Part shown: one piece after another, positions 12,828-36,223 of the stretch
Layout of the letters: the number at the start of each line of letters is the position of its first letter
Position numbering within the stretch: the first letter of the stretch is position 1
Source: Candidatus Hydrogenedens sp.
GTDB lineage: Bacteria; Hydrogenedentota; Hydrogenedentia; Hydrogenedentales; Hydrogenedentaceae
DNA length: 40,034 nucleotides
NCBI GenBank assembly: GCA_049968235.1
Contig: JBMFRC010000027.1
Span: 1-40,034, forward strand
Direction: 5' to 3'
Made by a program: the position numbers and the translations under genes
The notes under the pieces: generated by a model
Databases searched by the model: none
What the model was told of the DNA's origin: nothing
The model's input: the letters and a program-made list of their open reading frames with translations, nothing else

Positions 12828-12923
12828 AGTTTTATCCTGTGAATTTTAAGGTTATATTTTCATTTATAACTTACATGTATTATGGATGATATTTCAAATT
12901 TTGTAACAGATATAAAATTGTAT

Positions 12924-12960
12924 AAAAAAACTACGCCCTGCTTAAAAAGGCAGGGCGTAG
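12924..12960 (-). terminator. Rho-independent terminator for the minus-strand gene ending at 12987
   Basis: Perfect 11-bp inverted repeat ctacgccctgc / gcagggcgtag with an 8-nt loop. On the minus strand it is immediately followed by a run of 7 T (complement of aaaaaaa at 12924-12930). Confidence 0.75.
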
Positions 12961-12986
12961 TCCTTCATTAAAAGGCTTTAAATAGA

Positions 12987-17472: not shown

Positions 17473-17493
17473 AAAGAGATTTGACATAGGGAA

Positions 17494-18225: not shown

Positions 18226-18243
18226 ACAGAACCTATCTACTTA

Positions 18244-21811: not shown

Positions 21812-24229
21812 TTATTTCGAAGAAAGTATTTTCCATTCAAGAATACCTGCAGAGAAGTTAGGTTGAAGTTGAACAACAAGACGCAAAGCATTCGTAGAAA
21901 TGGTATTAAAAGTAACTTCGTTGTATTTGTCTCGCTCTGTGTTTTTTTTCGATGGTTTTGGAACGGGTAACCAGTGGTCGTCTTTTTGATAAAGTATTTC
22001 CCATGATTCAGGAACTCTGCATTCTCCGAAACCTGTATCATCAAACCAGAAGACCTGTACCCCTTTAATGGGATATTCTTTGTCAAAAGTGTATTGTACC
22101 CATTCTTTTGTTCCTTTGTGGTCCCACCATGTAAAACGAGGGATGTTCGTGTCGGATGATTTTTTCGGCTCTATCTGGTCGTTGAGAGCATAGAGACTGT
22201 CATTTGTCCAGATATGGGATGCATCCACACGGGCTTGTGTTTCTATGGTGGGGACGGTTACAAGGTCTGCATTTTCCGGCAACCATACACGCATAAATCC
22301 CTTTTTACGGTTTGCCCATGCGTAGTAAGGAATTAATTTCATGGGTTGGTCTATGCCGTTCGAATTTTCTAATGTTTTTAATTTTGCAGTGGTCTGTATT
22401 GTTATAACACCACCGAGCAAATCGGGTTCGAATTGGGACTGGAATGTAGAATTACGAGGGAGGAAAAGAAACCGCACCTGATTGGAATTATCCACATCTT
22501 CCGCACAAAAAACGATGGGACCTCTTTGAATAGCAACTTTACCGCGGTCGGCTTCTACTTTTTCATTCGCATAAACTCGCTGAACATCCATAGGTAAAGT
22601 AAGTGTGATTTCATTGCTCTGTTGCCACTCTCTCCGAATTTTTATGAACCCCTTTTCTAATGAGGTGATGGGGATACTTTCCCCATTTACTTTTATATGA
22701 ACCTTATCCAGTCCCGGACATTCGGGGTAATGATACAATCGTTCGATTGCTCCCTGTCCGCGATATGTCCAATCCGGGATTCGGATTGCAATGGTAAAAT
22801 TTTGTGGTTTGTCAGAATGGATTTGAATTTTGGTTTCGCCGTCCCAGGGATAATTCGTAGTTTGTTCTATCTGAATAAGATTTTTCTGTGAGGAATTGTT
22901 CGTTTTTACAAGAGTCAATTTTCCCTCGTCCCATGTGAGTTGTGTTTTTGTAGGGATATAGTGAAGGATGTAAAGGGTATCTTTCTCACAAGCATAGGTA
23001 TAACCCCCTATGGTGGGGATAAAACGAACTACATTGGTTGGACAGCAGGCACATTTTTGCCATGGGGGTCGTTGTTCCACACCTTCCAATCGATTACAAT
23101 AGAAAATGGTATCTGCGGTAAGGGAAAGACCGGACAGCGGGGTATTATAGAAAGCACGTTCTATAATATCCACATATTGAGCATCTTGATGTAGAAGGAA
23201 CATGCGTTGTGCCCAGAGGACCAATCCGATGGAAGCACATGTTTCACAATAGGCAGTATCATTGGGTAGATAATAAGGGTGGCTAAAACCTTCCAGACGC
23301 AGTAGAGAATCGCCAATGCCAGCGGTGATATACATTTTTCGCTCTGTCAGGTCATACCACAATCGGTCGAGAGCATTCGAATAACGAGTATCACCGGTTT
23401 TTGCAACGAGGTCTGTAACGGATGAATAGAGATACATAGCCCGAACTGCATGCCCTAAAATTTCATCCTGTTCGATGATAGGTTTATGGTCCTGACAGGT
23501 AAAATCCCAGCGACCGGTAGACTTGCCTTTATAAGGTTTCCCGCGTTGTTCTATGAACCAGCGTGCCATCTCTGCATACTTATTTTCCCCTGTGTAATCA
23601 GCAAGTTTGAACAATGCCAGCTCGATTTCTTCATGTTGAGGCACTTCTTCTACTTTACCCGTTCCAAAAGTTTCTACAATATGGTCTGCAAATTTTGTAG
23701 CCACATCCAGTAGTTTTGTTTTCCCGGTTGCTTGAGCGTATGCAATACCGGCTTCAATAAGATGTCCCGCACAATAGGTTTCATGTTCCGCATCATTTGT
23801 CCAGCGTTCCTTAGGTTTGACAAGCGTAAAATAAGTGTTCAGATAGCCATCCGGTTGTTGGGCTTTTGCAATCAAATCAATAATTTCATCTGCAGTTTTT
23901 TCAATATTCGGGTCTTTATGTAGAGCGAGCCAATATGCAGTTCCTTCGAGAACTTTATATACATCCGAATCCTCAAAACATGCTCCAATATGCTTCCCCT
24001 CTTTCACCCCTGCTGTTACACGGAAATTATCTATCTTCTTCTCTGTTTCGCAATATTCAAAATTATGAGGTAAAAACTTTTTGCCGACCCGCATAATCCA
24101 TTCGTCCCAGAAGCCCGGTTTAACTTCTACTTCGGTGAAGGGAACAGGAAACACGGGATAAATATTGGGCAATGTTGTAACGGTGTTAATCAAATATAGG
24201 GGACTAAGGCTTACGAGTAAAAGGGTCAT
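21812..24229 (-). CDS. GH127-family glycoside hydrolase (beta-L-arabinofuranosidase-like, DUF1680) with a C-terminal beta-sandwich domain
   Basis: Signal peptide. The GH127 catalytic/zinc-site motifs are CETCASIGL (Glu/Cys) and KCACCPTNVVRF (Cys-Cys-Pro), as in HypBA1. It is about 800 aa with an extra C-terminal domain. Confidence 0.75.
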   Translation of the reverse strand: MTLLLVSLSPLYLINTVTTLPNIYPVFPVPFTEVEVKPGFWDEWIMRVGKKFLPHNFEYCETEKKIDNFRVTAGVKEGKHIGACFEDSDVYKVLEGTAYWLALHKDPNIEKTADEIIDLIAKAQQPDGYLNTYFTLVKPKERWTNDAEHETYCAGHLIEAGIAYAQATGKTKLLDVATKFADHIVETFGTGKVEEVPQHEEIELALFKLADYTGENKYAEMARWFIEQRGKPYKGKSTGRWDFTCQDHKPIIEQDEILGHAVRAMYLYSSVTDLVAKTGDTRYSNALDRLWYDLTERKMYITAGIGDSLLRLEGFSHPYYLPNDTAYCETCASIGLVLWAQRMFLLHQDAQYVDIIERAFYNTPLSGLSLTADTIFYCNRLEGVEQRPPWQKCACCPTNVVRFIPTIGGYTYACEKDTLYILHYIPTKTQLTWDEGKLTLVKTNNSSQKNLIQIEQTTNYPWDGETKIQIHSDKPQNFTIAIRIPDWTYRGQGAIERLYHYPECPGLDKVHIKVNGESIPITSLEKGFIKIRREWQQSNEITLTLPMDVQRVYANEKVEADRGKVAIQRGPIVFCAEDVDNSNQVRFLFLPRNSTFQSQFEPDLLGGVITIQTTAKLKTLENSNGIDQPMKLIPYYAWANRKKGFMRVWLPENADLVTVPTIETQARVDASHIWTNDSLYALNDQIEPKKSSDTNIPRFTWWDHKGTKEWVQYTFDKEYPIKGVQVFWFDDTGFGECRVPESWEILYQKDDHWLPVPKPSKKNTERDKYNEVTFNTISTNALRLVVQLQPNFSAGILEWKILSSK

Positions 24230-24357
24230 GGTTGGTCTCCTTTTCAGAATTTTTCATTTACAACAAATTATAATTTGAGTCTTTTTTCAGTAAATTGTAT
24301 ACTACTAAAACGATTTATCAAATAACAATCTTATTGTTGGAGAATAAAAATATACAT

Positions 24358-25740
24358 ATGATAATTTCAGCGGAGAAAAAGAAATTAAGTGGTTGGGGAA
24401 GGTATTCTTCCCTTGAAAGTTATGTGTTCCGCCCTGAGAAATGGAAGACTTTAGATGCGGTATTGAAAGATGACCGTGTTCCCGATTTTCTTGCAAGGGG
24501 TTTGGGACGGAGTTATGGAGATACTGCCCTGAATGAAGGAGGGGCTTTGATCAATATGCTGAGATTAAACCGATTCCTTAACTGGAATGAAGAAGATGGG
24601 GTACTGGAATGTGAAGGAGGGGTTACATTAAAAGAAATTCTGGATGTCTTTTTGCCTCGAGGCTGGATGCCGTATGTGTGTCCGGGAACAAAATTTGTTA
24701 CGGTTGGAGGCGCTATTGCGAACGATATTCACGGGAAGAACCATCATGAAGAAGGGAGTTTTGGAAATCATGTTTTATCGTTTGATTTGATAGTAGGGGA
24801 CGGAAACGTTGTTTGTTGTAGTCGCGATGAGAATTCGGATTTGTTTTGGGCAACCATCGGTGGGATTGGAATGACAGGGATAATCCGAACAGCAAAGATT
24901 CGGCTGAAGAAAGTAAAAACCGCCTATTTCCATGTAGATTACTATCAAGCAAAAAATTTAGATGATTTACTTGAAAAGATGAAGGACTATGATGTCAAAT
25001 ATCCTTATACTGTAGCGTGGTTAGATTGCCTTGCCCAGAAAGAGAGTATGGGCAGAGGTGTGTTGATGGGAGGACGCATGGCAGAAGTAGAGGATTTGCC
25101 TCCTCGCTGGAAAAATGCCCCTTTGACACCAAAGAAAAAAAGAGATATAACCGTTCCGTTTGATGCTCCATCATGGGCTTTAAGTCAACGAACAGTGGGT
25201 ATTTTCAATTCGTGGTATTATGATTTGAACAAATCCGGATATGAAATTGTACCGTTGGAAAAGTTCTTTTTCCCATTAGACCGTGTTTTAGAATGGAACA
25301 GAATGTATGGGAAGACAGGATTTATACAATATCAGGTGGTTTTTCCGGGAAATGAAGTAAAAGGATTAAAAATATTATTAGAACAGTTAGTTTCTTCTCA
25401 ACGAGCGTCTTTCTTAACTGTTTTGAAACGGTTTGGTTCTGGAAATGAAGGGTTATTGTCATTTCCCAGAGAGGGATATACATTGGCGTTAGATATACCC
25501 AATCATGCGGGTCTGATAAATTTTGTGGAGGATTTGAATTTGATTGTCTTGAGATATGGAGGGAGGCTTTACCTTGCCAAAGACCAACTGATGTCAGAGA
25601 GTATGTTCCGGGAGACCTATCCCCACTGGATACAATTTCAGGAGATAAAGATGAAGTATGACCCTGGTATTCGTTTTTCATCGACAATGGCACGACGAAT
25701 AGGACTTATTCCGGAACGGAGGAGGGCTCCTATATGTTAA
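24358..25740 (+). CDS. dprE1: DprE1-like FAD-dependent decaprenylphosphoryl-beta-D-ribofuranose 2'-oxidase
   Basis: The likely start is ATG 24358 after GGAGA; the track ORF begins at 24295. LSGWGRY and ARGLGRSYGD match M. tuberculosis DprE1 (LTGWGRT, ARGLGRSYGD). An FAD-binding PCMH-type region (VTVGGAIANDIHGKNHH) and an ALO-like C-terminal domain are present. Confidence 0.8.
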   Translation: MIISAEKKKLSGWGRYSSLESYVFRPEKWKTLDAVLKDDRVPDFLARGLGRSYGDTALNEGGALINMLRLNRFLNWNEEDGVLECEGGVTLKEILDVFLPRGWMPYVCPGTKFVTVGGAIANDIHGKNHHEEGSFGNHVLSFDLIVGDGNVVCCSRDENSDLFWATIGGIGMTGIIRTAKIRLKKVKTAYFHVDYYQAKNLDDLLEKMKDYDVKYPYTVAWLDCLAQKESMGRGVLMGGRMAEVEDLPPRWKNAPLTPKKKRDITVPFDAPSWALSQRTVGIFNSWYYDLNKSGYEIVPLEKFFFPLDRVLEWNRMYGKTGFIQYQVVFPGNEVKGLKILLEQLVSSQRASFLTVLKRFGSGNEGLLSFPREGYTLALDIPNHAGLINFVEDLNLIVLRYGGRLYLAKDQLMSESMFRETYPHWIQFQEIKMKYDPGIRFSSTMARRIGLIPERRRAPIC

Positions 25741-26507
25741 ATTCAAATGAAATGAAACCGACATCGAAATCGGTACTTGTTTTAGGTAGTGTTTCCGCTG
25801 TAGGAAAAGCCATAGCACATGAGTTTGCAAAAGAAGGTTATTCGTTATTGCTGGCTGATATAGAAACAGAAGAAAATGAACGAATTGCAAAAGATATTCA
25901 AATCCGCTACCGGGTTTATTGCGATACTTTATATTTTGATGCAGGCGATATAGATTCTCATTCCGCTTTTTGGGACAGGGTTGTTAATAAGATAAATGGC
26001 TTGCCCGAAGGTCTGGTAATTTGTTTCGGATATATGCCGGTGCAGGAAGAAGCACAAAAAGATTTTAATCTTATCAAAAGGTCTATAGACATTAATTTTA
26101 CAGGTGTGGTATCTATTCTGGAACGGGTTATTGGTAGGTTTGAAGAAAGAAAACATGGTTTTGCCATAGTAATTTCCTCTGTCGCCGGTGATAGAGGTCG
26201 TAAGAGTAATTATATTTACGGCTCTACCAAGGGGGCATTAACACGATATGTGGAAGGATTGCAACATCGGTTAAGTTCCGCGAAAGTGCATATATTGCTT
26301 GTAAAACCGGGTTTTATGGACACCGCCATGACCTATGGGTTAAATTTACCTCAAAAACTTTTGGCAAGTCCCGAAGAAGCGGGGCGTATTATTCACAAAG
26401 CATGGAAACGAAAGAAACATGTTGTTTATGTTAAATGGTTCTGGCGATACATTATGCTTATTATTCAACATTTGCCCCGATTTGTATTTCATCGTACCCA
26501 ATTATAA
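25734..26507 (+). CDS. dprE2: DprE2-like short-chain dehydrogenase (decaprenylphospho-2'-keto-ribose reductase)
   Basis: Overlaps the dprE1 stop by 7 bp. VLVLGSVSAVG (Rossmann), VISSVAGDRGRKSNYIYGSTKGAL (Mtb DprE2: [24 protein letters not shown]) and the C-terminal WFWRYIMLIIQHLPRFVFHR (Mtb: AFRYVMMVLRHIPRSIFRK) all match. Confidence 0.8.
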   Translation: MLNSNEMKPTSKSVLVLGSVSAVGKAIAHEFAKEGYSLLLADIETEENERIAKDIQIRYRVYCDTLYFDAGDIDSHSAFWDRVVNKINGLPEGLVICFGYMPVQEEAQKDFNLIKRSIDINFTGVVSILERVIGRFEERKHGFAIVISSVAGDRGRKSNYIYGSTKGALTRYVEGLQHRLSSAKVHILLVKPGFMDTAMTYGLNLPQKLLASPEEAGRIIHKAWKRKKHVVYVKWFWRYIMLIIQHLPRFVFHRTQL

Positions 26508-26525: not shown

Positions 26526-27428
26526 ATGAAAATTCTTGTCTCACTTATAAAAACATTGAGGGTATATCAATGGACAAAAAATTTATTAGTATTTGCTGCG
26601 ATTATCTTTGCAGGCGAATTACTGAACTTAACGGCTATTAAACTTTCAATAATCGCCTTTTTTTCTTTTTGTTTTTCGGCAAGTTCCGCTTATATCCTGA
26701 ATGATGTTATTGATGTGGAAAAGGACCGACTTCATCCGGAGAAATCACGACGACCCATTCCCAGTGGAGATGTAAGTATCCCGATGGCGTTTTTCCTTAC
26801 TTTTACCTTAATAATACTCTCTCTATCATTAGGTTATACATTGGGCATAAAATTTATCGCAATCCTTCTGGTGTATGTTTTTCTAACGGTCAGTTATTCG
26901 TTGTTGTGGAAAAAGTTTTTTCTGGTGGACGTATTAATTTTGGCGATGGGTTTTGTAACGAGGGCTATAGCAGGTGCGGTGGCAATAAATGTGGTGTTTT
27001 CAAACTGGTTAATTGTATGCACCTTATTTTTAGCGTTATTTTTAGGACTGGGAAAAAGAAGGGGCGAATTGCTTCTATTAAAAGACGATGCAGAAAATCA
27101 TCGATCCGTCCTTGTATTTTATACGGTTGAATATTTAGACCAATTACTCCTTATTGTATCCAGCGGTGCTTTAATTACTTTTACAATTTACACATGTTCG
27201 CCAGAGGTAATTGCTCGCTTGCATACCGATAAATTATATATGAGTTTGCCCTTTGTAATTTATGGTTTGTTTCGCTATCTTTATTTAGTTCGGTATCAAG
27301 GGGAAGGTTCAGACCCCAGCAAGGTGTTACTATCTGATAAGCCTATTATACTCTGCGTAATTTTATGGGCATTAACGAATGTTTGTATTATTTACGGAGA
27401 GCAGATTATTCATTTACTCTATACCTGA
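26526..27428 (+). CDS. UbiA-family polyprenyl-phosphate 5-phosphoribosyltransferase (Rv3806c/UbiA-like)
   Basis: A 300-aa polytopic membrane protein with the UbiA Asp-rich motif NDVIDVEKDRLH and a second Asp-rich region. The size and its position right after dprE1/dprE2 mirror mycobacterial decaprenyl-phosphate phosphoribosyltransferase. Confidence 0.7.
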   Translation: MKILVSLIKTLRVYQWTKNLLVFAAIIFAGELLNLTAIKLSIIAFFSFCFSASSAYILNDVIDVEKDRLHPEKSRRPIPSGDVSIPMAFFLTFTLIILSLSLGYTLGIKFIAILLVYVFLTVSYSLLWKKFFLVDVLILAMGFVTRAIAGAVAINVVFSNWLIVCTLFLALFLGLGKRRGELLLLKDDAENHRSVLVFYTVEYLDQLLLIVSSGALITFTIYTCSPEVIARLHTDKLYMSLPFVIYGLFRYLYLVRYQGEGSDPSKVLLSDKPIILCVILWALTNVCIIYGEQIIHLLYT

Positions 27429-27462: not shown

Positions 27463-28776
27463 ATGAGTTCTGTTCGAATCGATTTTCAGAGAATCAACAA
27501 AAAAGTTATGGCAGTTGTTTTGGGGGGTGGTAGAGGCACAAGGTTATATCCATTAACGAAACTTCGGTCCAAGCCTGCAGTCCCTTTATGTGGGAGATAT
27601 CGGCTCATCGATATACCGCTGAGTAATTGTATTAATTCCGGGTTCATGCGAATTGTTGTTTTAACTCAATTTAATAGTCATTCCTTAAACCGTCATATTA
27701 TGAATGCTTATCACTTTGATGAATTTCACAGTGGCGGTGTTACCATTCTTGCTGCGGAACAAACCAATGAGACAGGGGATTGGTTTCAGGGCACTGCGGA
27801 TGCGGTTCGAAAGCATATTACCCATATTTATGAACCGGATGTACAATATTATCTCATTCTTTCCGGTGATCAGTTATATCGTATGGATTATCGAGATTTA
27901 TTAAAAACACATATCTCTAAAAAAGCAGAAATAACGGTATCTGCGTTGCCTGTGGGACGCAGTTCTGCATCGCAGTTCGGTATTATGCAGGTAGATTCGG
28001 AAGGAGGTATACAACGATTTGTGGAAAAGCCCAAAGAGGATGAAGTATTAGAGCAATTAACTACTCCCCCATCCCTTTTTGAGGAATTTGGTATTTCTGC
28101 AGAAGGGAAACCTTACTTAGCATCCATGGGCGTTTATGTTTTTAATGCAGATGTGCTAATCCATTTGTTGAGAGAACATCTGGAGTGGATAGATTTTGGT
28201 AAGCAATTGATTCCCGGTGCATTAGCCCAACATAAAGTATATGCACATATGTTTGATGGGTTCTGGGAGGATATAGGAACGGTTCGTTCTTATTACGATG
28301 TAAGTATTGCTATGACTTATGACCATCCCCCTTTTGAATTTCACGACCCGGAACAACCGATATATACACATCGAAGAGCCTTACCCGGTGCTAAAATTAT
28401 TTGCTCCGAAATTGACCATGCGATTGTCTGCTCCGGTGTCCGCATAGAAACAGCACGAGTTTGTCATTCCATTATTGGGATTCGCAGTATGATTTGTGAA
28501 TCTACGGTGATTGACCATAGTATTATATGTGGTGCGGATTCGTTTGAGATGGGAGCTGTCCGGCATCCTTCGGGTATTCCTATGGGAATTGGTCCCGGAA
28601 CTGTAATAGAAAAAGCCATCATTGACCATAATGTTCGTATCGGGAGAAATGTGATTATTCGTGGCGGAGATGATTTGAAGGATGGAGACTACAAGGGTTA
28701 TTCCATTCGCGATGGTATTGTTGTTGTCCATAAAAATGCCATTATTCCTGATGAAACAAAAATAGGGAAAGTGTAA
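27463..28776 (+). CDS. glgC: Glucose-1-phosphate adenylyltransferase (GlgC)-family NDP-sugar pyrophosphorylase
   Basis: The N-terminus VLGGGRGTRLYPLTKLRSKPAVPLCGRYRLIDIPLSNCINSGF is near-identical to the GlgC signature (GG-GTRL...KPAV..GG.YR.ID..LSNC.NSG). It is full length, with a C-terminal left-handed beta-helix (hexapeptide repeats). Confidence 0.7.
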   Translation: MSSVRIDFQRINKKVMAVVLGGGRGTRLYPLTKLRSKPAVPLCGRYRLIDIPLSNCINSGFMRIVVLTQFNSHSLNRHIMNAYHFDEFHSGGVTILAAEQTNETGDWFQGTADAVRKHITHIYEPDVQYYLILSGDQLYRMDYRDLLKTHISKKAEITVSALPVGRSSASQFGIMQVDSEGGIQRFVEKPKEDEVLEQLTTPPSLFEEFGISAEGKPYLASMGVYVFNADVLIHLLREHLEWIDFGKQLIPGALAQHKVYAHMFDGFWEDIGTVRSYYDVSIAMTYDHPPFEFHDPEQPIYTHRRALPGAKIICSEIDHAIVCSGVRIETARVCHSIIGIRSMICESTVIDHSIICGADSFEMGAVRHPSGIPMGIGPGTVIEKAIIDHNVRIGRNVIIRGGDDLKDGDYKGYSIRDGIVVVHKNAIIPDETKIGKV

Positions 28777-30899
28777 TGGGTGATATACAAAATACTGATG
28801 AACAAAAAGGAACAATAAACTCCGCTTCGGGGGAATTTCATTGGTATGAAGGATTAGCGATTTGCCTTTCGATGATAGGTGTTCAGTTATGTAGCGAAGT
28901 GATTAACCAATGGGGTTTGTATTTTTATTCTCCCTCCGGAGGAGTTGGTCGAACGGTCTATGTTTCTATTGGACTTGTTGGATATATATTTATAATTGGA
29001 ACATTCTGGGATGCCTTCAGTAGTCCATTAGTAGGTGCCTTATCCGATAAAACTCCAACCAGACCGGGACGATGGCGGATTATCCCTATTTATGGTCGTA
29101 GAAGACCCTATATTTTTTTAGGTGCGTTATTTATGGTTTTTACTATGATTGGTTTTTGGTTTCCACCGACAGGACATACTTCTTTTTTGAATTTTATTTA
29201 CGGGACTATTCTGTTATGTACTCATTGGACATTATTTTCAGTCGCTGTAATACCGTTAAACGCCTTAGGACCTGAAATAGCCCGTTCTGAATCAGCACGA
29301 GTTGCCCTGGGAACATGGACAGCCATTGGAATGATTATCGGATTGGCAATGGCGAACGCTTTACCGGGGATATTGATTTCAAAATTGGACCCGGCACGAG
29401 TGGAGAACCATTTGAAAATTGTTCTTGATGAAGATAAAACTTCGGATATATCTCGTGAAAAGATTGAAACCTGGTTGCAGACGTGGAAATTAACATCGGA
29501 TAAAATGGAAGGAATCGTTGAAGGAAAACAAAAGTCAACATTTAACATTCAAAATAATCTGTTCGATGAATTGCAGGAGAAAAGTATTACAAAAACCACA
29601 GATACTATTTTCCGTAAATTAGGTATTGACAAATATAAACAATTGCCTCGAAAAGCATTCAGGGCATTACAGGTGTCAACAAATTTAACCACACAGGAAT
29701 TATCAGAAAGGTTACGGAAAGAAGTTTATGAGTATTTAAAGATATGGGGTTCTAAGTGTATAAATGTACAAAAAGAAAATTCGGGTAATAAGATATACTT
29801 ACATTCGAAACTTTTGGAGGGTATAGAAACAAAGGACTTTATGGGAGAAGAATTTAAAGATAAGGATTTTTCCTTACAGGGGGAAACTTTGTCCATTATT
29901 TCGTCAGAACCTTTATCCGAAGAGGAAATAAACAGGATTCGGGAAACTGTTCTTTCTGCTGTGTTGAAAAAGCATCTTATTGTCTCTTCTTCGGGAGAGA
30001 ACCAGAATGTTGTGGTTATTTATTCCAGAGCATTAACCCAGTCGCTTGCCTTAGCAGGAATTCAGAGTTCGCTTCCCGGTACTCCTATCGTAGATATAAA
30101 TTGGGTGGCAGAAAGTTTTTCTCCTACGGGCTATCGCAGGGTCGCAACAGTATTTGCACTCATTTCATTTGTGCTGTTTTTATTACCGGTAATTTTTATC
30201 CGGGAGCGGTATAATTCAGAAGCGGTACAAAGCGAACCATTGCCATGGGGACAGGGACTAAAAGATGCATTGCGAAACAAGCCGTTTATGATTTATGCCT
30301 GGTCGTTCTTCCTGTTTACTATTGGATTTTTGGCTGTTCAGCGTGTTCTACCGTATTGGGCGGAGTTAGGGCTGGATGGAGATGAAAGCACGATTACCTT
30401 CTTATTGATACCGTTCATACTGGTAGCCATAATATCTTATGCAGTGATACCCATTGTAGCAAAGTATTTACATATGAAATGGCTTATGTTTATTGCGTTA
30501 GGAATTATCGCTTCAGGGATGCCATTTTTGTATATGATTGGAAAATGGAATGTAGATTTTACTGTGCGAACAATTATGGGTATGGTTTTATTCGGTTATT
30601 GTGGTATAGGACAAGCCATAATTTATGTGATGATGATACCTATGCTGGGGGATATTATTGATTATGATGAAAAATTTTCCGGAGAGCGTCGTGAAGCAGT
30701 TTATAACGGTCTTAGTGCTTTTATCTGGAAAGCCTCCATGGCAGGTTCTATCTGGTTGGCTTCACAATCGATGAGTTTATGGGGCAATTCCGTTGAACGC
30801 TATACAGGTGTATTGCTCGTTGGACCCTTTGCGGGGATTTTTGGATTGTTAGGGATGATTTTGATTTCTTTTTATCCATCTCATTGGAGAGAGGGATAA
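28776..30899 (+). CDS. GPH-family (glycoside-pentoside-hexuronide:cation symporter-like) MFS membrane protein with a ~230-aa inserted soluble domain
   Basis: The start overlaps the GlgC stop (TAATG). The GPH signature is DAFSSPLVGALSDKT...GRRRPYI. Five N-terminal TM helices are followed by a long hydrophilic insertion (about residues 200-430), then about 7 more TM helices. Confidence 0.6.
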   Translation: MGDIQNTDEQKGTINSASGEFHWYEGLAICLSMIGVQLCSEVINQWGLYFYSPSGGVGRTVYVSIGLVGYIFIIGTFWDAFSSPLVGALSDKTPTRPGRWRIIPIYGRRRPYIFLGALFMVFTMIGFWFPPTGHTSFLNFIYGTILLCTHWTLFSVAVIPLNALGPEIARSESARVALGTWTAIGMIIGLAMANALPGILISKLDPARVENHLKIVLDEDKTSDISREKIETWLQTWKLTSDKMEGIVEGKQKSTFNIQNNLFDELQEKSITKTTDTIFRKLGIDKYKQLPRKAFRALQVSTNLTTQELSERLRKEVYEYLKIWGSKCINVQKENSGNKIYLHSKLLEGIETKDFMGEEFKDKDFSLQGETLSIISSEPLSEEEINRIRETVLSAVLKKHLIVSSSGENQNVVVIYSRALTQSLALAGIQSSLPGTPIVDINWVAESFSPTGYRRVATVFALISFVLFLLPVIFIRERYNSEAVQSEPLPWGQGLKDALRNKPFMIYAWSFFLFTIGFLAVQRVLPYWAELGLDGDESTITFLLIPFILVAIISYAVIPIVAKYLHMKWLMFIALGIIASGMPFLYMIGKWNVDFTVRTIMGMVLFGYCGIGQAIIYVMMIPMLGDIIDYDEKFSGERREAVYNGLSAFIWKASMAGSIWLASQSMSLWGNSVERYTGVLLVGPFAGIFGLLGMILISFYPSHWREG

Positions 30900-30937: not shown

Positions 30938-32170
30938 TCAGACAGTCCTTCTCAGTTTTGAGAAAACACTTAAATATTTTTTTGCATTTTCTCTCCGTGT
31001 AAAATGAGCAAGGACATATTCCCTTCCCTTTTTCCCAAAGTTCTTTCGCAATTCTGGGTTTTGAATCATTTTGATTAAGCCCGAAGTATATTCCTCTACA
31101 TTTTCCGGTTCAACAGTAATTCCTGCATTGGCTTCTTCTAAAATGTCACGGGCTTGACCTTCCGCCCCCAGTAGAATGGGACGTTCACAAGCCATAATCT
31201 CAAACATTTTAGAGGGGATATTATAACGAAAAACATCACGTTTTTTTAAGGGAACAAGGCATATATCTGCAGAAGAATACCAGTCAGGCATAACCTGTTT
31301 TTTTACAGGCGGATAAAACTCGATATTGGTTAGTTCTTTCTCTTGTGCAATCGCAATTAGTCGTTCGCGGTCTGCCCCAGCACCGACAAAGACAAAAAGG
31401 ATATTAGGGTTATCTTTGAAATTTTCTGCTACCTGTAAGATTGTTTCTAACCCCTGAGAAAGACCCATAGTCCCGATATATAACACCACAATTTTAGAAG
31501 AGTCCCAATTCTTTTCCTGACGAATTTTTTCCCCACCCGGGCTCGGTTTAAAAAAATCCTCGTTTATTCCATTGGGAATGGTGAAAATTTTATTTCCATC
31601 AAAGCCGCGTCTTTCAATTTCATGAGACATAGCAGGGGCTATTGTAACAATTGCTTTTGCTCGATGGTAAAGAAAAGATTCTAAGGAAGAAAGCAAATAG
31701 ATAATAAAGCGATTTTTTATTACACCCAAATCAATAATCTGGGCAGGCCAGAGGTCGCGTATTTCGAGGACAAACGGTCTCCATTTAAACAGAGAAACGA
31801 TATATCCTGCCAGACCACATAACATTTGAGGAGAAGTGGCTACAACTACATCACATTTCTGGGTAAAGAAAATAGCAACCAGAATAGAAGAAATCATATA
31901 AGTGAGAAAGGCAAAACTTCGTTTCAATACACCGCGGTTCGGTGTCGCATAAAGCCATCCGCGGAGTACACGAATCCCATCCCAATTTTCACGAACAAGC
32001 CACCTGCCCCGATATCCGGGGGGAATAACGCCATCGGGATGATTGGGCAGTCCACATACCACTGTAACCTCATGCCCTTCTTGAACCCAATATTTAGCAT
32101 GCTCATAAGTTCGGGCAGACGGAGCCCCCATTTCAGGGGGGAAATATTGACACAAAAAGAGAATCTTCAT
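30938..32170 (-). CDS. GT4-family glycosyltransferase (WcaI/WbuB-like)
   Basis: The N-terminal KILFLCQYFPPEMGAPSARTYEHAKYW...GHEVTVV is typical of GT4 GT-B enzymes. C-terminal EX7E-like region (EIMACERPIL...). Convergent with the preceding operon. Confidence 0.8.
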   Translation of the reverse strand: MKILFLCQYFPPEMGAPSARTYEHAKYWVQEGHEVTVVCGLPNHPDGVIPPGYRGRWLVRENWDGIRVLRGWLYATPNRGVLKRSFAFLTYMISSILVAIFFTQKCDVVVATSPQMLCGLAGYIVSLFKWRPFVLEIRDLWPAQIIDLGVIKNRFIIYLLSSLESFLYHRAKAIVTIAPAMSHEIERRGFDGNKIFTIPNGINEDFFKPSPGGEKIRQEKNWDSSKIVVLYIGTMGLSQGLETILQVAENFKDNPNILFVFVGAGADRERLIAIAQEKELTNIEFYPPVKKQVMPDWYSSADICLVPLKKRDVFRYNIPSKMFEIMACERPILLGAEGQARDILEEANAGITVEPENVEEYTSGLIKMIQNPELRKNFGKKGREYVLAHFTRRENAKKYLSVFSKLRRTV

Positions 32171-32590: not shown

Positions 32591-33877
32591 TTATCCGTTG
32601 CGTTGTACCAGAACGGTTTGTTCGTATTTTTTAACCTCGTGTAGCCAATTAATGCCCACAGGAACATCCTTTTTAAGGCAATAATAATCCCAAACGGCGG
32701 ACCAGGGCAAATTCTTTATTTCCTCTAATAGAGCCAGTCGACTTGTATAATCGCCCGAATTTTCCAGTTCTTTTAAGAGGGTTACAGGTTCTAACAATGA
32801 TTTTAATAATGCGCGCAGTACGGCGCGTGTTCCCGTTACCCACGCTGAAATGCGGTTGATACTGGCATCGAAAAAGTCCAGTCCGATATGAACACGGGCA
32901 AATAAATTATTCCGTGCAATTTCGTCCATGAGTGCAGAAACATCATCATTTACAATGACGACATGGTCGCTATCCCACCGGACACCTCTGCTAATATGCA
33001 ATAGAACTTCGGGAATATATAACAAGACGGAAGATAGTTTATCAGCAACCAATTCGGTTGGGTGGAAATGTCCCATATCGAGGCAAAGGATTTTTTGCTT
33101 ACGGACAGCATATCCTAAATAAAATTCATGCGAACCGACAACATAACATTCAGACCCTATCCCAAACAATTTGCTTTCAATAGAGTCTTTGTTCCATGTT
33201 TCGTCTATGGGTTTTGCAAAGATTTCATCCAGCGATTCTTTCAGTCGTTGACGGGGTCCTAATCTATCCACGGGTAGGTCTTTGTATCCATCAGGTATCC
33301 AGATATTGGTAACACAAGTTTTTCCCAGTGTTTTCCCAAAATAAGCACCAATGTCCCTACAAATTATACAGTGCCGTATCCAGAATTCACGGATAGAGCG
33401 GTCATTATGAGAGAGTGTAAACCCCGAATCTGCTAATGGATGAGCAAAGCAGGTGGGGTTAAAATCTATACCCAATCCATTTTCCTTTGCCCAATCTGCC
33501 CAGCGAGAAAAATGTTCCGGGGTCAGGGCATCCCGTTCTACCTTTTTCCCCTGTGTTTCCGCATAAATTGCATGTAAATTGATACGATGTTTTCCGGGGA
33601 TTAAGGATAAGGCTTTTTCAATATCCTGGCGTAATTCATCTGCATTTCTTGCTTTACCGGGATAATTCCCTGTTGCTTGTATTCCACCACTGGAAGAGGT
33701 TTCTATATGTTCAAACCCACTGACATCATCTCCCTGCCAGCAATGTAAGGAGACAGGAATGCTCTCTAAGGATTTTAGAACGGTTTCTGTATCTACCTGG
33801 AAAGTAGAGAACATTTCTCGGGCAATTTCATACGATTTTTCTATCTGATTTGTGCGATATACTGGAATATTAGGCAT
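32591..33877 (-). CDS. rhaA: L-rhamnose isomerase
   Basis: Near-colinear match to E. coli RhaA motifs: [91 protein letters not shown]. Length 428 aa. Confidence 0.95.
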
Positions 33878-34070: not shown

Positions 34071-34472
34071 ATGGCACACAACTCAGGTTTCACTCTCATA
34101 GAACTTATTCTGGTAACGATTATCATCGGTATTCTTGCGGGTATGGTGGTGATGAATTATGGAGGTAGAGTGCGTGAAACACAAATTCGAGCTGCAAAAG
34201 GCGATATAGCAACTTATTGTAATGCTGTAGACTTGTATGCATTAGACCATAATGATAAATATCCTGCCAGTTTAGAAGATTTAGTCAGCGGTGAGCGTCG
34301 TTATGTTCGTGAAGTCCGTCCTGACCCATGGGGCAATCCATATATTTATAAACCAGCTACTGACCCATTAAAAGCAGATTATCAAATTTTTTCGGCCGGA
34401 CCGGATGGTGTTCCCGGAAATGAAGATGATGTTACATCTTCATCAAAGACAGAACTTACATCGAAAAAATAA
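34071..34472 (+). CDS. gspG: Type II secretion major pseudopilin GspG
   Basis: Prepilin leader plus GFTLIELILVTIIIGILAGM (cleavage/methylation motif). The GspG-specific PDPWGNPYIY motif is present. 133 aa. Confidence 0.85.
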   Translation: MAHNSGFTLIELILVTIIIGILAGMVVMNYGGRVRETQIRAAKGDIATYCNAVDLYALDHNDKYPASLEDLVSGERRYVREVRPDPWGNPYIYKPATDPLKADYQIFSAGPDGVPGNEDDVTSSSKTELTSKK

Positions 34473-34500
34473 CTATATCAAGAATTAAGATACGAACAGG

Positions 34501-35022
34501 GTGCATATTATTTATTATGTAAAAAAAGCAAAATATGGATTTACTCTCCTTGAGTTAGTCGTTGTAGTAGCATTGATTTCCATACTGACAGGTATGATTA
34601 TCCCGATATATAACCGCACGATGTATTCACTCCGTATAAGAAATACCACGCAGGATATAACCTCGCTAATTCGGTATGCTCAGGAAAAAGCAGTAGCAGA
34701 ATCACGCGAATTTCGTGTGCTAATTGATGAGGAAAAGGGGACTTTTTCATTGTTTCGTTTGAAAAGCCAATCTTGGGATGGAGAAAAAGAGTTCGAACCT
34801 GTGGGAACCGCAGATGGAGGTGGAATGATTACCCTGCCCGAAACAATACAAATTTCACGAATAACAGCGGGTAAGGACCGAAAAACAGGTATCCGTTATA
34901 TTTCCTGCTATCCTAATGGTGCTTCCGACCCGGGGCAAATTGAGTTAGAGCCACAAATTCGAGGACAACAACGTATTCTTATTAAGTGGACAGGAGCATT
35001 GGGGAGGTTTGAAATAAAATGA
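34501..35022 (+). CDS. Minor pseudopilin (GspH-like)
   Basis: N-terminal prepilin-type motif GFTLLELVVVVALISILTGM. Size about 170 aa and position after gspG. Confidence 0.55.
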   Translation: MHIIYYVKKAKYGFTLLELVVVVALISILTGMIIPIYNRTMYSLRIRNTTQDITSLIRYAQEKAVAESREFRVLIDEEKGTFSLFRLKSQSWDGEKEFEPVGTADGGGMITLPETIQISRITAGKDRKTGIRYISCYPNGASDPGQIELEPQIRGQQRILIKWTGALGRFEIK

Positions 35023-35486
35023 GACGGACTGCACAAGAAATGGGTTATATATTATTTGAAGCAGTATTTTCTATGGCGATATTAAGTATTGCGGGTTTGA
35101 CCTTCCAGTCTGCCTTACACCAAGCCATTTTAACCCGTGGACAAGCCCTTGATTATACAACTGCTAAATTCCTGCTGGAGCAAATGAATGCAGAGATAGA
35201 ATTACAACCCCAACATGTAGAAGGTGAAAAATCGGGAACTTTTCCAGAACCATATAATCGCTTTTCATATCAATACCAAATTTCCAAATTACCCATACCC
35301 AAACCGGAGTTACCACCTGAATTACCGCCACAACTCCGTGAGAATTTAGAAAAAATGTTCCGTGACTATATTACAAAAGTAGACATCTGGATACGGTGGC
35401 AAAGGGCAGGAATGAAATTTGAAGTCCATGCCCAGAATTTATTTCAACCTGAGAAGTTATGGACACCCGAAGAATATCAACAATAA
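35019..35486 (+). CDS. Minor pseudopilin-like protein (GspI-like, divergent prepilin N-terminus)
   Basis: The start overlaps the previous stop. The N-terminal hydrophobic helix GYILFEAVFSMAILSIAG resembles the class III signal/pseudopilin helix but lacks the canonical F/E pattern. Operon position supports the call. Confidence 0.4.
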   Translation: MRRTAQEMGYILFEAVFSMAILSIAGLTFQSALHQAILTRGQALDYTTAKFLLEQMNAEIELQPQHVEGEKSGTFPEPYNRFSYQYQISKLPIPKPELPPELPPQLRENLEKMFRDYITKVDIWIRWQRAGMKFEVHAQNLFQPEKLWTPEEYQQ

Positions 35487-36223
35487 AAAATAGGTTATTA
35501 CTTTGTCCCCGACAGAGAGGCTTCACATTAATGGAACTTCTTGTCGCTACGACATTGTTAAGTATTGTCCTTTCTTCTGTTTATGTGCTTTTTCACTCAT
35601 CAATCCAGACATGGAAACGACTGGAGTCGGGTGTCAATCCTCAGCAAGATGCTCGCCTTGTAATGAATCTGATAGGCAGGGATATAAACAATCTTATTGC
35701 TTCTGCGGGACATTTATTTGAGGGAGATGACCAGCAGATGACTTTATTTGTTATTACGGAACCATTTGATAAGGATACAGGAGAAGGGGGACATCTTATG
35801 CGGATTGAGTATAAATATAATCGGGGGCAGAAACGATTGGAACGGGAAGAAGCATTGGTAGAGACTGCATTGCCCAAAGTACCTCCTGCCAATCGTGAAC
35901 TTGACCGTTCGCGGGTTAAGGTAACCAGAAAAAAGAAGGTAACCCTTGTAGAAAATGTACGGGAATTTGAAATAACTTATATCTGGATTCCCTATGATGA
36001 GAAAAGGAACTGGAAGGAACCTCCAAGCCCTGTTGAGCCTGTGCGTGTTCAGAAACATAAACTTTGTTGGTGGCTACCTCAGGGTATAGAGATTAAAATG
36101 GCTCTTTATGACCCTGACCAACCGGAAGGGGAAACAGTATATAAGGAAACTTTTCCAATTCGTGCTCCTTCTGCCCATTTAACGGAAGAACAACTTCAGA
36201 AATTGCTAAGGGATGAGTTATGA
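35459..36223 (+). CDS. Minor pseudopilin (GspJ-like)
   Basis: Prepilin motif RGFTLMELLVATTLLSIVLSSV. About 250 aa, as for GspJ. Confidence 0.55.
   Translation: MDTRRISTIKNRLLLCPRQRGFTLMELLVATTLLSIVLSSVYVLFHSSIQTWKRLESGVNPQQDARLVMNLIGRDINNLIASAGHLFEGDDQQMTLFVITEPFDKDTGEGGHLMRIEYKYNRGQKRLEREEALVETALPKVPPANRELDRSRVKVTRKKKVTLVENVREFEITYIWIPYDEKRNWKEPPSPVEPVRVQKHKLCWWLPQGIEIKMALYDPDQPEGETVYKETFPIRAPSAHLTEEQLQKLLRDEL

What the first reader, a model, noticed from the sequence alone, without database searches (positions are those of the whole stretch)
28776..30899. GPH-family MFS protein with a ~230-aa soluble domain inserted between TM5 and TM6, translationally coupled to the GlgC-like gene
The protein has the GPH signature (DAFSSPLVGALSDKT, GRRRPYI). 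It is interrupted after about five helices by a long hydrophilic insertion (about LDPARVENH... to ...GYRRV) with no recognisable motif, after which the MFS helices resume. Canonical GPH/MFS transporters have only short loops. Its start codon overlaps the stop of the upstream gene (TAATG), so it is co-translated with the DPA-like operon. It is a candidate transporter or flippase-like component for the lipid-linked sugar or its precursor, with an inserted regulatory or binding domain.
Basis: seen in the sequence. Interest (0 to 1): 0.55.

Follow-up and report, generated by a model that had tools for sequence, protein, structure and literature searches.

The report
MFS transporter with orphan periplasmic insert
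A membrane transporter of an uncultured Hydrogenedentota bacterium carries a family-specific ~245-residue folded domain, built from three small repeated modules, in an outward-facing loop; it sits in a conserved operon with enzymes that make a lipid-linked pentose, so it may flip that lipid, but this is not shown.

Summary
ORF 28776-30899 (+, 707 aa) is one intact 12-helix MFS_2/GPH-type transporter. A 247-aa hydrophilic stretch (aa 204-450) lies between TM5 and TM6, and the start codon overlaps the glgC stop (TAATG).

By canonical MFS topology the insert is periplasmic. AlphaFold2 folds it confidently (pLDDT about 89) into three tandem ferredoxin-like alpha/beta modules. It has no Pfam or PDB relative. 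A search of 1.84 billion representative proteins found it only in this transporter family.

Orthologues show a length series for this loop: 16 aa, then one, two or three modules. The insert diverges far faster than the core (11% vs 76% identity) but is under purifying selection (dN/dS about 0.2 vs 0.03).

The conserved gene neighbourhood is UbiA-type polyprenyl-phosphate phosphoribosyltransferase, then GlgC, then the MFS. DprE1/DprE2-like genes are added in some clades, and the order holds with or without the insert.

The core is closest in sequence and fold to the lysolipid transporter MFSD2A, not to MelB. My best reading (about 0.4) is a flippase for the polyprenyl-phosphate pentose, with an accessory periplasmic scaffold. 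A glycoside symporter feeding GlgC is a serious rival. GlgC's place in the operon is unexplained. Novelty: new variant of a known kind.

The parts
28776..30899 (+). MFS_2/GPH-type, MFSD2A-like transporter gene (707 aa) with inserted domain
28774..28778 (+). TAATG stop/start overlap between glgC and the MFS gene
   Evidence: Read directly from the sequence. Tight spacing is conserved in relatives.
28842..29384 (+). N-terminal half, TM1-TM5 (aa 23-203). Includes the TM2 motif WDAFSSPLVG (aa 78-87) and the loop 2-3 motif GRRRP (aa 107-111).
   Evidence: Hydropathy, AF2 helices, Pfam profile positions 6-159.
29385..30125 (+). Periplasmic TM5-TM6 loop (aa 204-450). Conserved loop bases are LDPAR (N-terminal side) and ESFSPTGYRR (C-terminal side; its GYRR residues, aa 452-455, lie in TM6, just past this part), with the orphan insert between them.
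   Evidence: The insert profile finds only this family among 1.84e9 proteins.
29403..29624 (+). Insert module 1 (aa 210-283): beta-alpha-beta-beta-alpha
   Evidence: AF2 secondary structure. hhalign M1 vs M2 P=2e-4.
29625..29861 (+). Insert module 2 (aa 284-362), with the clade-conserved PRKAF motif. Largely absent from the ~200-aa-loop variants.
29862..30113 (+). Insert module 3 (aa 363-446): beta-beta-alpha-beta-beta-alpha-beta
30126..30866 (+). C-terminal half, TM6-TM12 (aa 451-697). Includes GDIIDYDEKFSGERREA in the TM10 to loop 10-11 region.
27463..28776 (+). glgC (glucose-1-phosphate adenylyltransferase), the most conserved upstream neighbour
   Evidence: NF002772 575.6 bits (cut-off 537) and TIGR02091 434.9 (cut-off 424.9). 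Sits upstream on the same strand in 29 or more loci.
26526..27428 (+). UbiA-type polyprenyl-phosphate phosphoribosyltransferase (DPPR-synthase type)
   Evidence: NF008977 268.4 bits (cut-off 234). 105.9 bits to Rv3806c (8j8j), with the PRPP and 5'-phosphate residues conserved.
25734..26507 (+). DprE2-like SDR
   Evidence: NF053786 165 bits (below cut-off 250); PRK07102 275.7 (cut-off 267).
24295..25740 (+). DprE1-like FAD oxidase. The true start is probably downstream of the TTG at 24295.
   Evidence: NF053785 471.2 bits (cut-off 500). Homologues are 460-467 aa.

Best explanation
The gene encodes a 12-helix secondary transporter of the GPH/MFS_2 lineage. Its core resembles the lysolipid transporter MFSD2A more than the sugar symporter MelB.

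Proposed function (inferred, not shown): it belongs to a conserved Hydrogenedentota module, UbiA-type polyprenyl-phosphate phosphoribosyltransferase, then GlgC, then the MFS. In the window's clade this module is preceded by DprE1/DprE2-like epimerase genes. I propose that the transporter moves the amphipathic product of that pathway, a polyprenyl-phosphate ribofuranose or arabinofuranose, from the cytoplasmic to the periplasmic leaflet. That would make it the flippase component of a 'three-component'-type pentofuranosylation route.

The insert (anatomy shown, role inferred): the 247-aa stretch is a lineage-specific periplasmic elaboration of the TM5-TM6 loop. It grew in place by loop expansion and tandem duplication into three ferredoxin-like modules. 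It is not required for transport, because orthologues in the same operon lack it. Its most likely role is a protein-protein docking or spacer platform on the periplasmic face. This follows from the GspL/GspM/PilO-like fold of the modules and from sequence that evolves fast under purifying selection.
For: Shown:
- Architecture: split MFS_2 match, 12 TM helices and a confident AF2 model.
- Topology: the K/R-rich loops 2-3, 6-7 and 10-11 are cytoplasmic, which places loop 5-6 outside. The aligned MFSD2A TM5-TM6 loop carries NGS and NRT sequons.
- The insert is an orphan: no Pfam or PDB relative, and only 5 hits among 1.84e9 representative proteins, all from this family or its frameshifted fragments.
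- Loop-length series of 16, about 90-118, about 200 and 242-282 aa, with the conserved bases LDPAR and SFSPTGYRR.
- Tandem duplication: P0080 repeat 1 vs repeat 2 gives z=11.9, with 0 of 300 shuffles as high. In the window's clade the signal is weak (P about 2e-4).
- Selection: dN/dS 0.17-0.23 in the insert against 0.02-0.03 in the core. Insert identity is 11-71% where core identity is 76-97%.
- Context: UbiA and GlgC sit upstream on the same strand across deep clades, with and without the insert. UbiA lies directly next to the MFS in L027 and L036.
- The UbiA gene keeps the Rv3806c residues for Mg2+, pyrophosphate and the 5'-phosphate.

Supporting inference:
- Paralogues sit beside GH30, ceramidase-like, AAT, PIG-L and acyltransferase genes, which are lipid or glycolipid enzyme families.
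- The MFS core is more conserved than GlgC between the same loci, and periplasmic loops are as conserved as the helices. Both fit an envelope-biogenesis role.
- Flippases of such systems belong to different families (MATE, GtrA/SMR-like), and none has been shown directly (PMC11127046).
Against: - No transport or flipping activity was tested.
- No GT-C glycosyltransferase, 5'-phosphatase, MATE or GtrA gene lies in the 40-kb window, so a complete three-component system is not co-located.
- The most constant neighbour is GlgC, a cytoplasmic sugar-nucleotide enzyme with no role in the DPA pathway. This fits a sugar-uptake reading at least as well.
- Pfam and NCBIfam place the protein with glycoside transporters, although below every NCBIfam cut-off.
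- Glycoside hydrolases and rhaA flank the operon.
Confidence: 0.4

Rival explanations
1. It is a conventional glycoside or oligosaccharide:cation symporter. Its import feeds glucose-1-phosphate to the co-translated GlgC for glycogen storage. The periplasmic insert acts as a lid or a substrate-capture domain.
For: - MFS_2/GPH is the best Pfam and NCBIfam family, and the GPH-type motifs WDAxxxPxxG and DYDExxSGxRRE are present.
- GlgC is the most constant neighbour and is translationally coupled.
- A NUDIX gene lies downstream in some loci. This would fit ADP-sugar turnover, which is my own knowledge of E. coli AspP.
- GH127, GH2, GH30, GH31 and rhaA genes are nearby.
Against: - Every NCBIfam sugar-transporter model scores far below its cut-off: gph 111.7 against 231, and MelB 43.5 against 456.
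- The second TM2 Asp of the MelB/MFSD2A cation site is Ser in this clade.
- The UbiA linkage, including direct UbiA-MFS adjacency without GlgC, is left unexplained.
- The core is more conserved than the metabolic enzymes beside it, which is unusual for a facultative sugar importer.
- The insert has almost no conserved residues that could form a binding site.
Confidence: 0.3
2. It is an MFSD2A/LplT-like importer that retrieves a lysolipid or glycolipid from the outer leaflet of the inner membrane for re-acylation or catabolism. The direction is opposite to that of a flippase for a biosynthetic donor.
For: - MFSD2A is the closest solved relative.
- A PF01553 acyltransferase lies downstream of UbiA-GlgC-MFS in 5-6 loci.
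- Paralogues are clustered with ceramidase-like, AAT, GH30 and PIG-L genes.
- Ca. [quoted passage not shown] 2015, as cited in PMC6121073).
Against: - The window's own operon is biosynthetic (PPPRS, DprE1/2-like, GlgC), not catabolic.
- The acyltransferase is absent from the window and from its clade.
- The lipid-enzyme contexts belong to paralogous clades.
Confidence: 0.12
3. Concerning the insert only: it is a tolerated, essentially functionless loop expansion, a structural passenger with no role of its own.
For: - Orthologues in the same operon work with a 12-16 aa loop.
- The loop is a hotspot that also holds low-complexity 36-66 aa expansions.
- Insert identity falls to about 10% while the core stays at 76%.
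- Almost no columns in the insert are invariant.
Against: - dN/dS of 0.17-0.23 indicates purifying selection.
- The length and the three-module fold are kept across a clade whose cores have diverged to 74-76% identity.
- The fold is predicted confidently and is compact (pLDDT 88.8, pTM 0.86).
Confidence: 0.15
4. The long ORF is an artefact: a frameshift, an assembly error or two fused ORFs.
For: None found.
Against: - The reading frame is continuous.
- The same architecture appears in about 30 independent clusters from NCBI, ENA, JGI and Logan assemblies.
- The alignment is collinear.
- The insert is under purifying selection.
- AF2 gives a confident single-chain model.
Confidence: 0.01

Closest known systems
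MFSD2A (sodium-dependent lysophosphatidylcholine symporter; PDB 7n98, 7mjs, 7oix, 8d2s)
   Different: Identity is only 16%. MFSD2A is eukaryotic. The second TM2 Asp is Ser in the window's clade. The MFSD2A loop is about 35 aa and is not a folded three-module domain. The substrate here is unknown.
MelB and other bacterial GPH (TC 2.A.2) glycoside:cation symporters
   Same: Same Pfam family (MFS_2). The first TM2 Asp is conserved. The loop 10-11 motif DYDE..SG.RRE is present.
   Different: The profile match is much weaker (33 bits). Scores are below every NCBIfam cut-off. The equivalents of the MelB cation-site residues Asn58 and Asp59 are Ser-Ser here. No MelB-type transporter is known, to my knowledge, with a folded periplasmic domain.
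Flippases of three-component pentofuranose glycosylation systems (Citrobacter ORF14, MATE family; M. tuberculosis Rv3789, GtrA/SMR-like). Source: PMC11127046.
   Same: The gene is encoded next to a PRPP-dependent polyprenyl-phosphate phosphoribosyltransferase and, in this clade, next to DprE1/DprE2-like epimerases. The proposed role is the same: moving polyprenyl-phosphate pentofuranose to the periplasm.
   Different: The protein superfamily is different (MFS). No GT-C partner lies in the locus. GlgC is interposed. The role is inferred here and has not been shown directly for the known systems either.
LtaA and LplT (bacterial MFS glycolipid and lysolipid transporters)
   Same: They are MFS transporters that move amphipathic lipids and are encoded beside the enzymes that make or re-acylate the lipid. 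This is a mechanistic analogy, drawn from PMC8866510 (title and abstract) and my own knowledge.
   Different: No detectable sequence similarity in the PDB searches. They belong to the MFS_1 lineage and have no periplasmic domain.
Periplasmic ferredoxin-like domains of GspL/XcpY, PulL, GspM/EpsM and PilO
   Different: There is no sequence similarity. The match is at fold level only. Here three modules sit in tandem inside a transporter loop.
MFS transporters with extra domains: PepT1/2 extracellular domain (TM9-10), SV2 luminal domain (TM7-8), SLC22 (TM1-2), LacS IIA domain, YajR YAM domain
   Same: They set the precedent that MFS loops or termini can host folded accessory domains. The YajR YAM domain is also ferredoxin-like (my own knowledge).
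   Different: The host loop differs (TM5-6), the folds differ or the domain is on the other side of the membrane, and there is no homology. None of them is a tandem array that arose within the loop.

Membership tests
Major facilitator superfamily, MFS_2 / GPH lineage (Pfam PF13347; TC 2.A.2) | Twelve transmembrane helices in two six-helix halves | tested here: met
Major facilitator superfamily, MFS_2 / GPH lineage (Pfam PF13347; TC 2.A.2) | Pfam MFS_2 score above the gathering threshold | tested here: met
   133.9 bits against 27, in two stretches.
Major facilitator superfamily, MFS_2 / GPH lineage (Pfam PF13347; TC 2.A.2) | NCBIfam TIGR00792 'gph' (glycoside-pentoside-hexuronide:cation symporter) above its curated cut-off | tested here: not met
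   111.7 bits against a cut-off of 231.35. MelB, GusB and YagG models score 30-50 bits against cut-offs of 456-836.
Major facilitator superfamily, MFS_2 / GPH lineage (Pfam PF13347; TC 2.A.2) | TM2 cation-site motif D-x-x-(N/T)-D-P (MelB Asp55, Asn58, Asp59; MFSD2A Asp93, Asp97) | tested here: not met
   The window has W-D79-A-F-S82-S83-P. The first Asp is kept and the second is Ser. The wider family consensus is WDAvtDP. Residue numbers for MelB and MFSD2A are from my own knowledge.
Major facilitator superfamily, MFS_2 / GPH lineage (Pfam PF13347; TC 2.A.2) | Transport of a glycoside, pentoside or hexuronide | not testable with these tools
   Needs uptake assays.
MFSD2-type lysolipid transporters | Closest relative by sequence and by fold among solved structures | tested here: met
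MFSD2-type lysolipid transporters | Amphipathic cavity with lateral lipid access; lysolipid transport | not testable with these tools
Three-component extracytoplasmic pentofuranosylation system (PMC11127046) | Polyprenyl-phosphate phosphoribosyltransferase that uses PRPP | tested here: met
   NF008977 268.4 bits against 234. Rv3806c residues R22, K28, Y70, N73, D77, K87, R90, Y138 and K143 are conserved.
Three-component extracytoplasmic pentofuranosylation system (PMC11127046) | DprE1/DprE2 epimerase pair, for Araf systems | tested here: inconclusive
   DprE1 model 471.2 bits against cut-off 500. DprE2 model 165.1 against 250. Both are the best specific hits but fall below the cut-offs.
Three-component extracytoplasmic pentofuranosylation system (PMC11127046) | Flippase of the MATE or GtrA/SMR-like type in the locus | tested here: not met
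   No such gene in the window. The MFS is the only transporter in the operon.
Three-component extracytoplasmic pentofuranosylation system (PMC11127046) | GT-C glycosyltransferase in the locus | tested here: not met
   No GT-C Pfam hit, and no polytopic ORF of 400 aa or more other than the MFS, in the 40-kb window. The rest of the genome was not available.
GspL/GspM/PilO-type periplasmic ferredoxin-like domain | Fold similarity of single modules | tested here: inconclusive

The most novel reading that the evidence does not exclude
The UbiA(PPPRS)-GlgC-MFS triad of Hydrogenedentota is an undescribed envelope-glycosylation route. In it, an MFSD2A-like MFS is the flippase for polyprenyl-phosphate ribo- or arabinofuranose. 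That would be a third, unrelated flippase family for such donors, and the first from the MFS. In one clade the transporter evolved a three-module periplasmic domain from its own TM5-TM6 loop, and this domain hands the donor to, or docks, the periplasmic transferase or the acceptor glycan. GlgC would supply the ADP-glucose-derived acceptor.
Probability: 0.2. Interest if true: 0.75.

Novelty: new variant of a known kind. Interest (0 to 1): 0.5.

Why it matters
If the flippase reading holds, it adds an MFS to the small and experimentally unproven set of candidate polyprenyl-phosphate pentofuranose flippases (MATE, GtrA/SMR-like). It would also provide a tractable, highly conserved protein for testing how such donors cross the membrane. 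That question is still open even for mycobacterial DPA.

Independently of function, the loop series of 16 aa, then one, two and three modules is a clean natural example of a folded periplasmic domain arising and growing inside a transporter loop. No donor domain was found anywhere else among 1.84 billion representative proteins.

The analysis also shows that DPA-like genes are embedded in a conserved operon in an uncultured phylum, and that glgC is unexpectedly part of it.

Tried and rejected
- Frameshift or fused ORFs: rejected.
- Domain capture from another protein: rejected. The insert profile finds nothing outside the family, there is no Pfam or PDB hit, and the best fold matches are generic ferredoxin-like modules.
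- Foreign DNA insertion: not supported. Insert GC is 0.36 against 0.40 for the core and 0.39 for the window, and the insert is collinear in all relatives.
- ADP-glucose as the donor of the UbiA-type enzyme, which would have explained GlgC: rejected as unsupported. The Rv3806c residues that bind the PRPP 5'-phosphate and pyrophosphate are conserved.
- Strict linkage of the MFS to DprE1/DprE2: rejected. Many GlgC-MFS and UbiA-GlgC-MFS loci lack them nearby.
- Promoter and terminator scan of the operon: counts equal those in shuffled sequence, so it was uninformative.
- The afdb50 fold library was unavailable.
- Literature searches for Hydrogenedentes plus decaprenylphosphoryl, and for MFS polyprenyl flippases, found nothing relevant.
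- My ORF-cluster 'unk559' was an antisense ORF over glgC in high-GC loci, not a real gene. Those loci are GlgC loci by tblastn.


Full report
**1. The observation**

The window has an ATG-initiated ORF at 28776..30899 on the + strand, encoding 707 aa. The upstream ORF (27463..28776) ends in TAA. The last A of that stop is the first base of the ATG (gtgTAATGg).

Pfam MFS_2 matches the protein in two collinear pieces. Residues 33-202 match profile positions 6-159, and residues 443-670 match positions 162-382, with E 7.5e-39 for the whole protein. NCBIfam TIGR00792 'gph' gives the same split.

Hydropathy shows five hydrophobic helices, then a 248-aa hydrophilic stretch with no 19-residue window above 1.2, then seven more helices. 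So the description is correct. The only adjustment is that the insert is about 245 aa (204-450), not about 230.

**2. It is one real protein, not an artefact**

A search of 5.8 billion clustered proteins returned 79 relatives. About 30 clusters of 649-729 aa share the same architecture at 47-86% identity. They come from independent NCBI, ENA, JGI and Logan assemblies.

AlphaFold2 with a 78-sequence alignment gives a confident model (mean pLDDT 89.1, pTM 0.86). It has 12 TM helices, with TM5 at 172-203 and TM6 at 451-474, and an alpha/beta domain at 212-444.

Between the window and two close relatives (L085, L086), Nei-Gojobori dN/dS is 0.02-0.03 for the membrane core and 0.17-0.23 for the insert. 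The insert is therefore translated and under purifying selection, though about 7-10 times more relaxed than the core.

**3. Topology**

Lys and Arg are concentrated in loops 2-3 (7), 6-7 (4) and 10-11 (3). Loops 1-2, 3-4, 7-8, 9-10 and 11-12 have 0-1 each. This is the canonical N-in MFS topology, with the GRRRP motif in the cytoplasmic loop 2-3.

The TM5-TM6 loop therefore faces the periplasm. In the profile alignment, the corresponding loop of MFSD2A is also extended and carries NGS and NRT sequons. That is consistent with an outward-facing position. The insert is thus an extracytoplasmic domain, which rules out a cytoplasmic regulatory role.

**4. What the insert is**

Modelled alone with 23 sequences, the insert is compact and confident (pLDDT 88.8, pTM 0.86). 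Its secondary structure reads as three consecutive beta/alpha modules, at about aa 210-283, 284-362 and 363-446.

No close relative was found by any route:
- Foldseek finds nothing at E<=1e-3.
- A profile search of PDB sequences finds nothing.
- Pfam finds nothing.
- An exhaustive HMM search of 1.84 billion representative proteins with the insert profile returned five hits. All are members of this same MFS family or frameshifted fragments of it.

The domain is therefore an orphan confined to this transporter lineage.

**5. How the insert arose**

In orthologues, the TM5-TM6 loop forms a length series:

| Loop length | Content | Notes |
|---|---|---|
| 16 aa | no insert | many proteins of 460-490 aa; consensus LDPAR-x3-5-(F/Y)SPTGYRR |
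| 36-66 aa | low-complexity Pro/Ala/Glu-rich linkers | |
| 90-118 aa | one module | |
| about 200 aa | two modules | |
| 242-282 aa | three modules | |

The conserved loop bases flank every version.

In P0080, a 729-aa relative, two modules are clearly duplicates: SVVFHGALLGALDFAHIEEAVSGLLP and SFVFSGGLVGKLDVKCVELAVSALLP. The local alignment z-score is 11.9, and 0 of 300 shuffles score as high. In the window's clade the repeat signal has decayed to hhalign P of about 2e-4 to 5e-4.

An NJ tree of the membrane core puts the 242-282-aa forms in one clade. A second clade carries 100-282-aa loops, and shorter expansions are scattered across the tree.

The simplest reading is expansion of the loop in place, followed by tandem duplication, rather than capture of a pre-existing domain. 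GC content gives no sign of foreign origin: 0.36 for the insert against 0.40 for the core and 0.39 for the window.

**6. Rate contrast**

Core and insert identities to the window are:

| Relative | Core identity | Insert identity |
|---|---|---|
| P0001 | 97% | 71% |
| P0004 | 93% | 56% |
| P0014 | 83% | 17% |
| P0024 | 76% | 11% |

Almost no insert column is invariant apart from the loop bases. A conserved ligand-binding or catalytic site in the insert is therefore unlikely. A fold-level scaffold or a co-evolving protein interface fits better.

Orthologues with a 12-16 aa loop sit in the same DprE1-DprE2-UbiA-GlgC-MFS arrangement (L044, L045, L048). The insert is therefore accessory to whatever the transporter does.

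**7. Genomic context**

In the window, five co-directional genes are packed with gaps of 34 nt or less:
- DprE1-like FAD oxidase (471 bits against cut-off 500).
- DprE2-like SDR.
- UbiA-type decaprenyl-phosphate phosphoribosyltransferase (268 bits against cut-off 234).
- GlgC (575.6 bits against 537, and 434.9 against 424.9).
- The MFS.

I examined 86 related loci by tblastn and ORF clustering. They are mostly Hydrogenedentota MAGs, with some Planctomycetota. The findings were:
- GlgC lies immediately upstream on the same strand in about 40 loci.
- UbiA lies upstream of GlgC in about 25 loci.
- The DprE1/DprE2-like pair is present only in the window's clade and in one insert-less clade.
- UbiA abuts the MFS directly in L027 and L036.

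Mapped on the core tree, the UbiA+GlgC context is spread over deep branches, so it appears ancestral. GlgC-to-MFS spacing is -4 to +49 nt in the loci with called genes.

Paralogous insert-less clades sit in different clusters containing PIG-L, GH30, Fe-ADH_2, AAT and ceramidase-like genes. Several UbiA-GlgC-MFS loci have a PF01553 acyltransferase and a TauE gene downstream.

The UbiA gene keeps the Rv3806c residues that bind Mg2+ (N73, D77), the pyrophosphate (R22, K87, R90, Y138, K143) and the 5'-phosphate of PRPP (K28, Y70). This comes from the alignment and the residue roles in PMC10994848. It should therefore make polyprenyl-phosphate 5-phosphoribose. I considered and dropped the idea that it uses GlgC's ADP-glucose.

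**8. What the core resembles**

A profile of the family scores 77 bits (E 1e-20) against MFSD2A lysolipid transporters and 33 bits against MelB. The single sequence hits only MFSD2A entries in the PDB.

All NCBIfam sugar-transporter models fall far below their cut-offs. In the TM2 motif, the first Asp is kept (D79) but the second is Ser83 in this clade. A MelB/MFSD2A-type Na+ site is therefore unlikely.

Two further features are unusual for a facultative sugar importer:
- Periplasmic loops L1-2, L3-4 and L7-8 are as conserved as the helices.
- The core is more conserved than GlgC between the same loci: 93, 83 and 76% for the core against 88, 76 and 64% for GlgC.

**9. Interpretation**

Known 'three-component' pentofuranosylation systems combine a PRPP-dependent polyprenyl-phosphate phosphoribosyltransferase, a flippase and a periplasmic GT-C enzyme. 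Araf systems also have DprE1/E2 homologues. The flippase is a MATE protein in Citrobacter and a GtrA/SMR-like protein (Rv3789) in M. tuberculosis. Neither has been shown directly to flip (PMC11127046).

In the Hydrogenedentota operon the only membrane transporter is this MFSD2A-like MFS. I therefore favour, at about 0.4, the view that it translocates the polyprenyl-phosphate pentose, and that the insert is an accessory periplasmic platform.

The main weaknesses are:
- No GT-C, phosphatase, MATE or GtrA gene lies in the 40-kb window.
- GlgC, the most faithful partner, has no place in that pathway.
- The family is formally a glycoside-transporter family.

A glycoside symporter that feeds GlgC is therefore a strong rival (about 0.3). 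An MFSD2A/LplT-like lipid importer is a weaker one (about 0.12). Whether the insert has any function of its own is a separate question. Purifying selection argues that it does.

**10. Comparison with known systems, and verdict**

Membership in the MFS and in Pfam MFS_2 is met. Membership in the curated GPH symporter family (TIGR00792), and possession of its cation site, is not met. The three-component system is only partly present. The insert modules resemble GspL/GspM/PilO domains at fold level only.

MFS transporters with accessory domains are known: PepT1/2, SV2, SLC22, LacS and YajR (my own knowledge). None has a tandem ferredoxin-like array in the TM5-TM6 loop.

This is a new variant of a known kind. 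Interest is moderate at 0.5. It would be higher if the MFS proves to be a polyprenyl-phosphate pentose flippase.

Noticed in passing
window 27463-28776 (+), and loci L001-L086: A bona fide glgC sits between the PRPP-type UbiA gene and the MFS in a gene order conserved across deep Hydrogenedentota clades. No known pathway links ADP-glucose synthesis with polyprenyl-phosphate pentose synthesis.
   Followed up: partly
window 21812-24229 (-); L047:5558-7609 (-), L061:5535-7586 (-): A GH127 protein (beta-L-arabinofuranosidase or aceric-acid-hydrolase type, with a C-terminal F5/8 type C domain) is encoded divergently from dprE1 in the window, L001, L008, L010 and L085. In L047 and L061 a DUF2961 protein occupies the equivalent position upstream of UbiA. 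From my own knowledge, DUF2961 corresponds to GH172, a family that contains alpha-D-arabinofuranosidases. These may be remodelling enzymes for an arabinofuranose-containing glycan.
   Followed up: partly
L025, L030, L032, L033, L040, L052, L006, L065, L069: Insert-less paralogues of the MFS lie in clusters with GH30 (the glucosylceramidase family), neutral-ceramidase-like, AAT (acid-ceramidase/penicillin-acylase-like), PIG-L deacetylase and Fe-ADH_2 genes. This looks like a glycolipid or glycoside catabolic module in Hydrogenedentota and Planctomycetota.
   Followed up: partly
window 28776-30899 compared with 27463-28776 across L001, L008, L003: The membrane core of the transporter is more conserved than GlgC between the same pairs of loci (93/83/76% against 88/76/64%). 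UbiA and DprE1/2 identities, where those genes are present, are likewise lower.
   Followed up: yes
window 24295-25740 (+): The mechanical ORF for the DprE1-like gene starts at a TTG and gives 481 aa, whereas called homologues are 460-467 aa. The true start is probably an internal codon about 14-21 codons downstream.
   Followed up: no
window 30938-32170 (-): A WcaI-like GT4 glycosyltransferase converges on the MFS gene with a 38-nt gap. It is conserved only in the closest relatives (L001, L010, L085, L086).
   Followed up: partly
window 34071-39758 (+): An operon of prepilin-type N-terminal-methylation proteins (T2SS G/H/K-like pseudopilins) follows rhaA (32591-33877, -). It is syntenic in L085 and L086.
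   Followed up: no
window 16432-19260: A HisG-like ATP phosphoribosyltransferase (346 aa, a weak PF01634 hit), a GT2 glycosyltransferase (243 aa) and, on the opposite strand, a sulfotransferase form a small group about 5-8 kb upstream of the operon. HisG-type enzymes also use PRPP.
   Followed up: no
L012, L028, L030, L033, L036, L039, L041, L042, L044, L047, L049, L056, L069, L070, L075: Contigs carrying this Hydrogenedentota-type gene or cluster belong to MAGs labelled Nitrospirales, Nitrospiraceae, Pseudomonadales or Bathyarchaeia. This probably reflects mis-binning or mislabelling of those MAGs.
   Followed up: no
L003:12162-13661, L005:9382-9918, L018: A NUDIX hydrolase, fused to a Lactamase_B domain in L003 and L018, lies directly downstream of the MFS in some GlgC-MFS loci.
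   Followed up: no
window 295-2397 (+), 11043-15623 (-): Other glycan-related genes are present in the window: a GtaA six-hairpin protein with DUF4964 and DUF5127, a pectate-lyase-fold protein, and an 878-aa BACON/CarboxypepD_reg protein. These are consistent with a glycan-degrading lifestyle.
   Followed up: no
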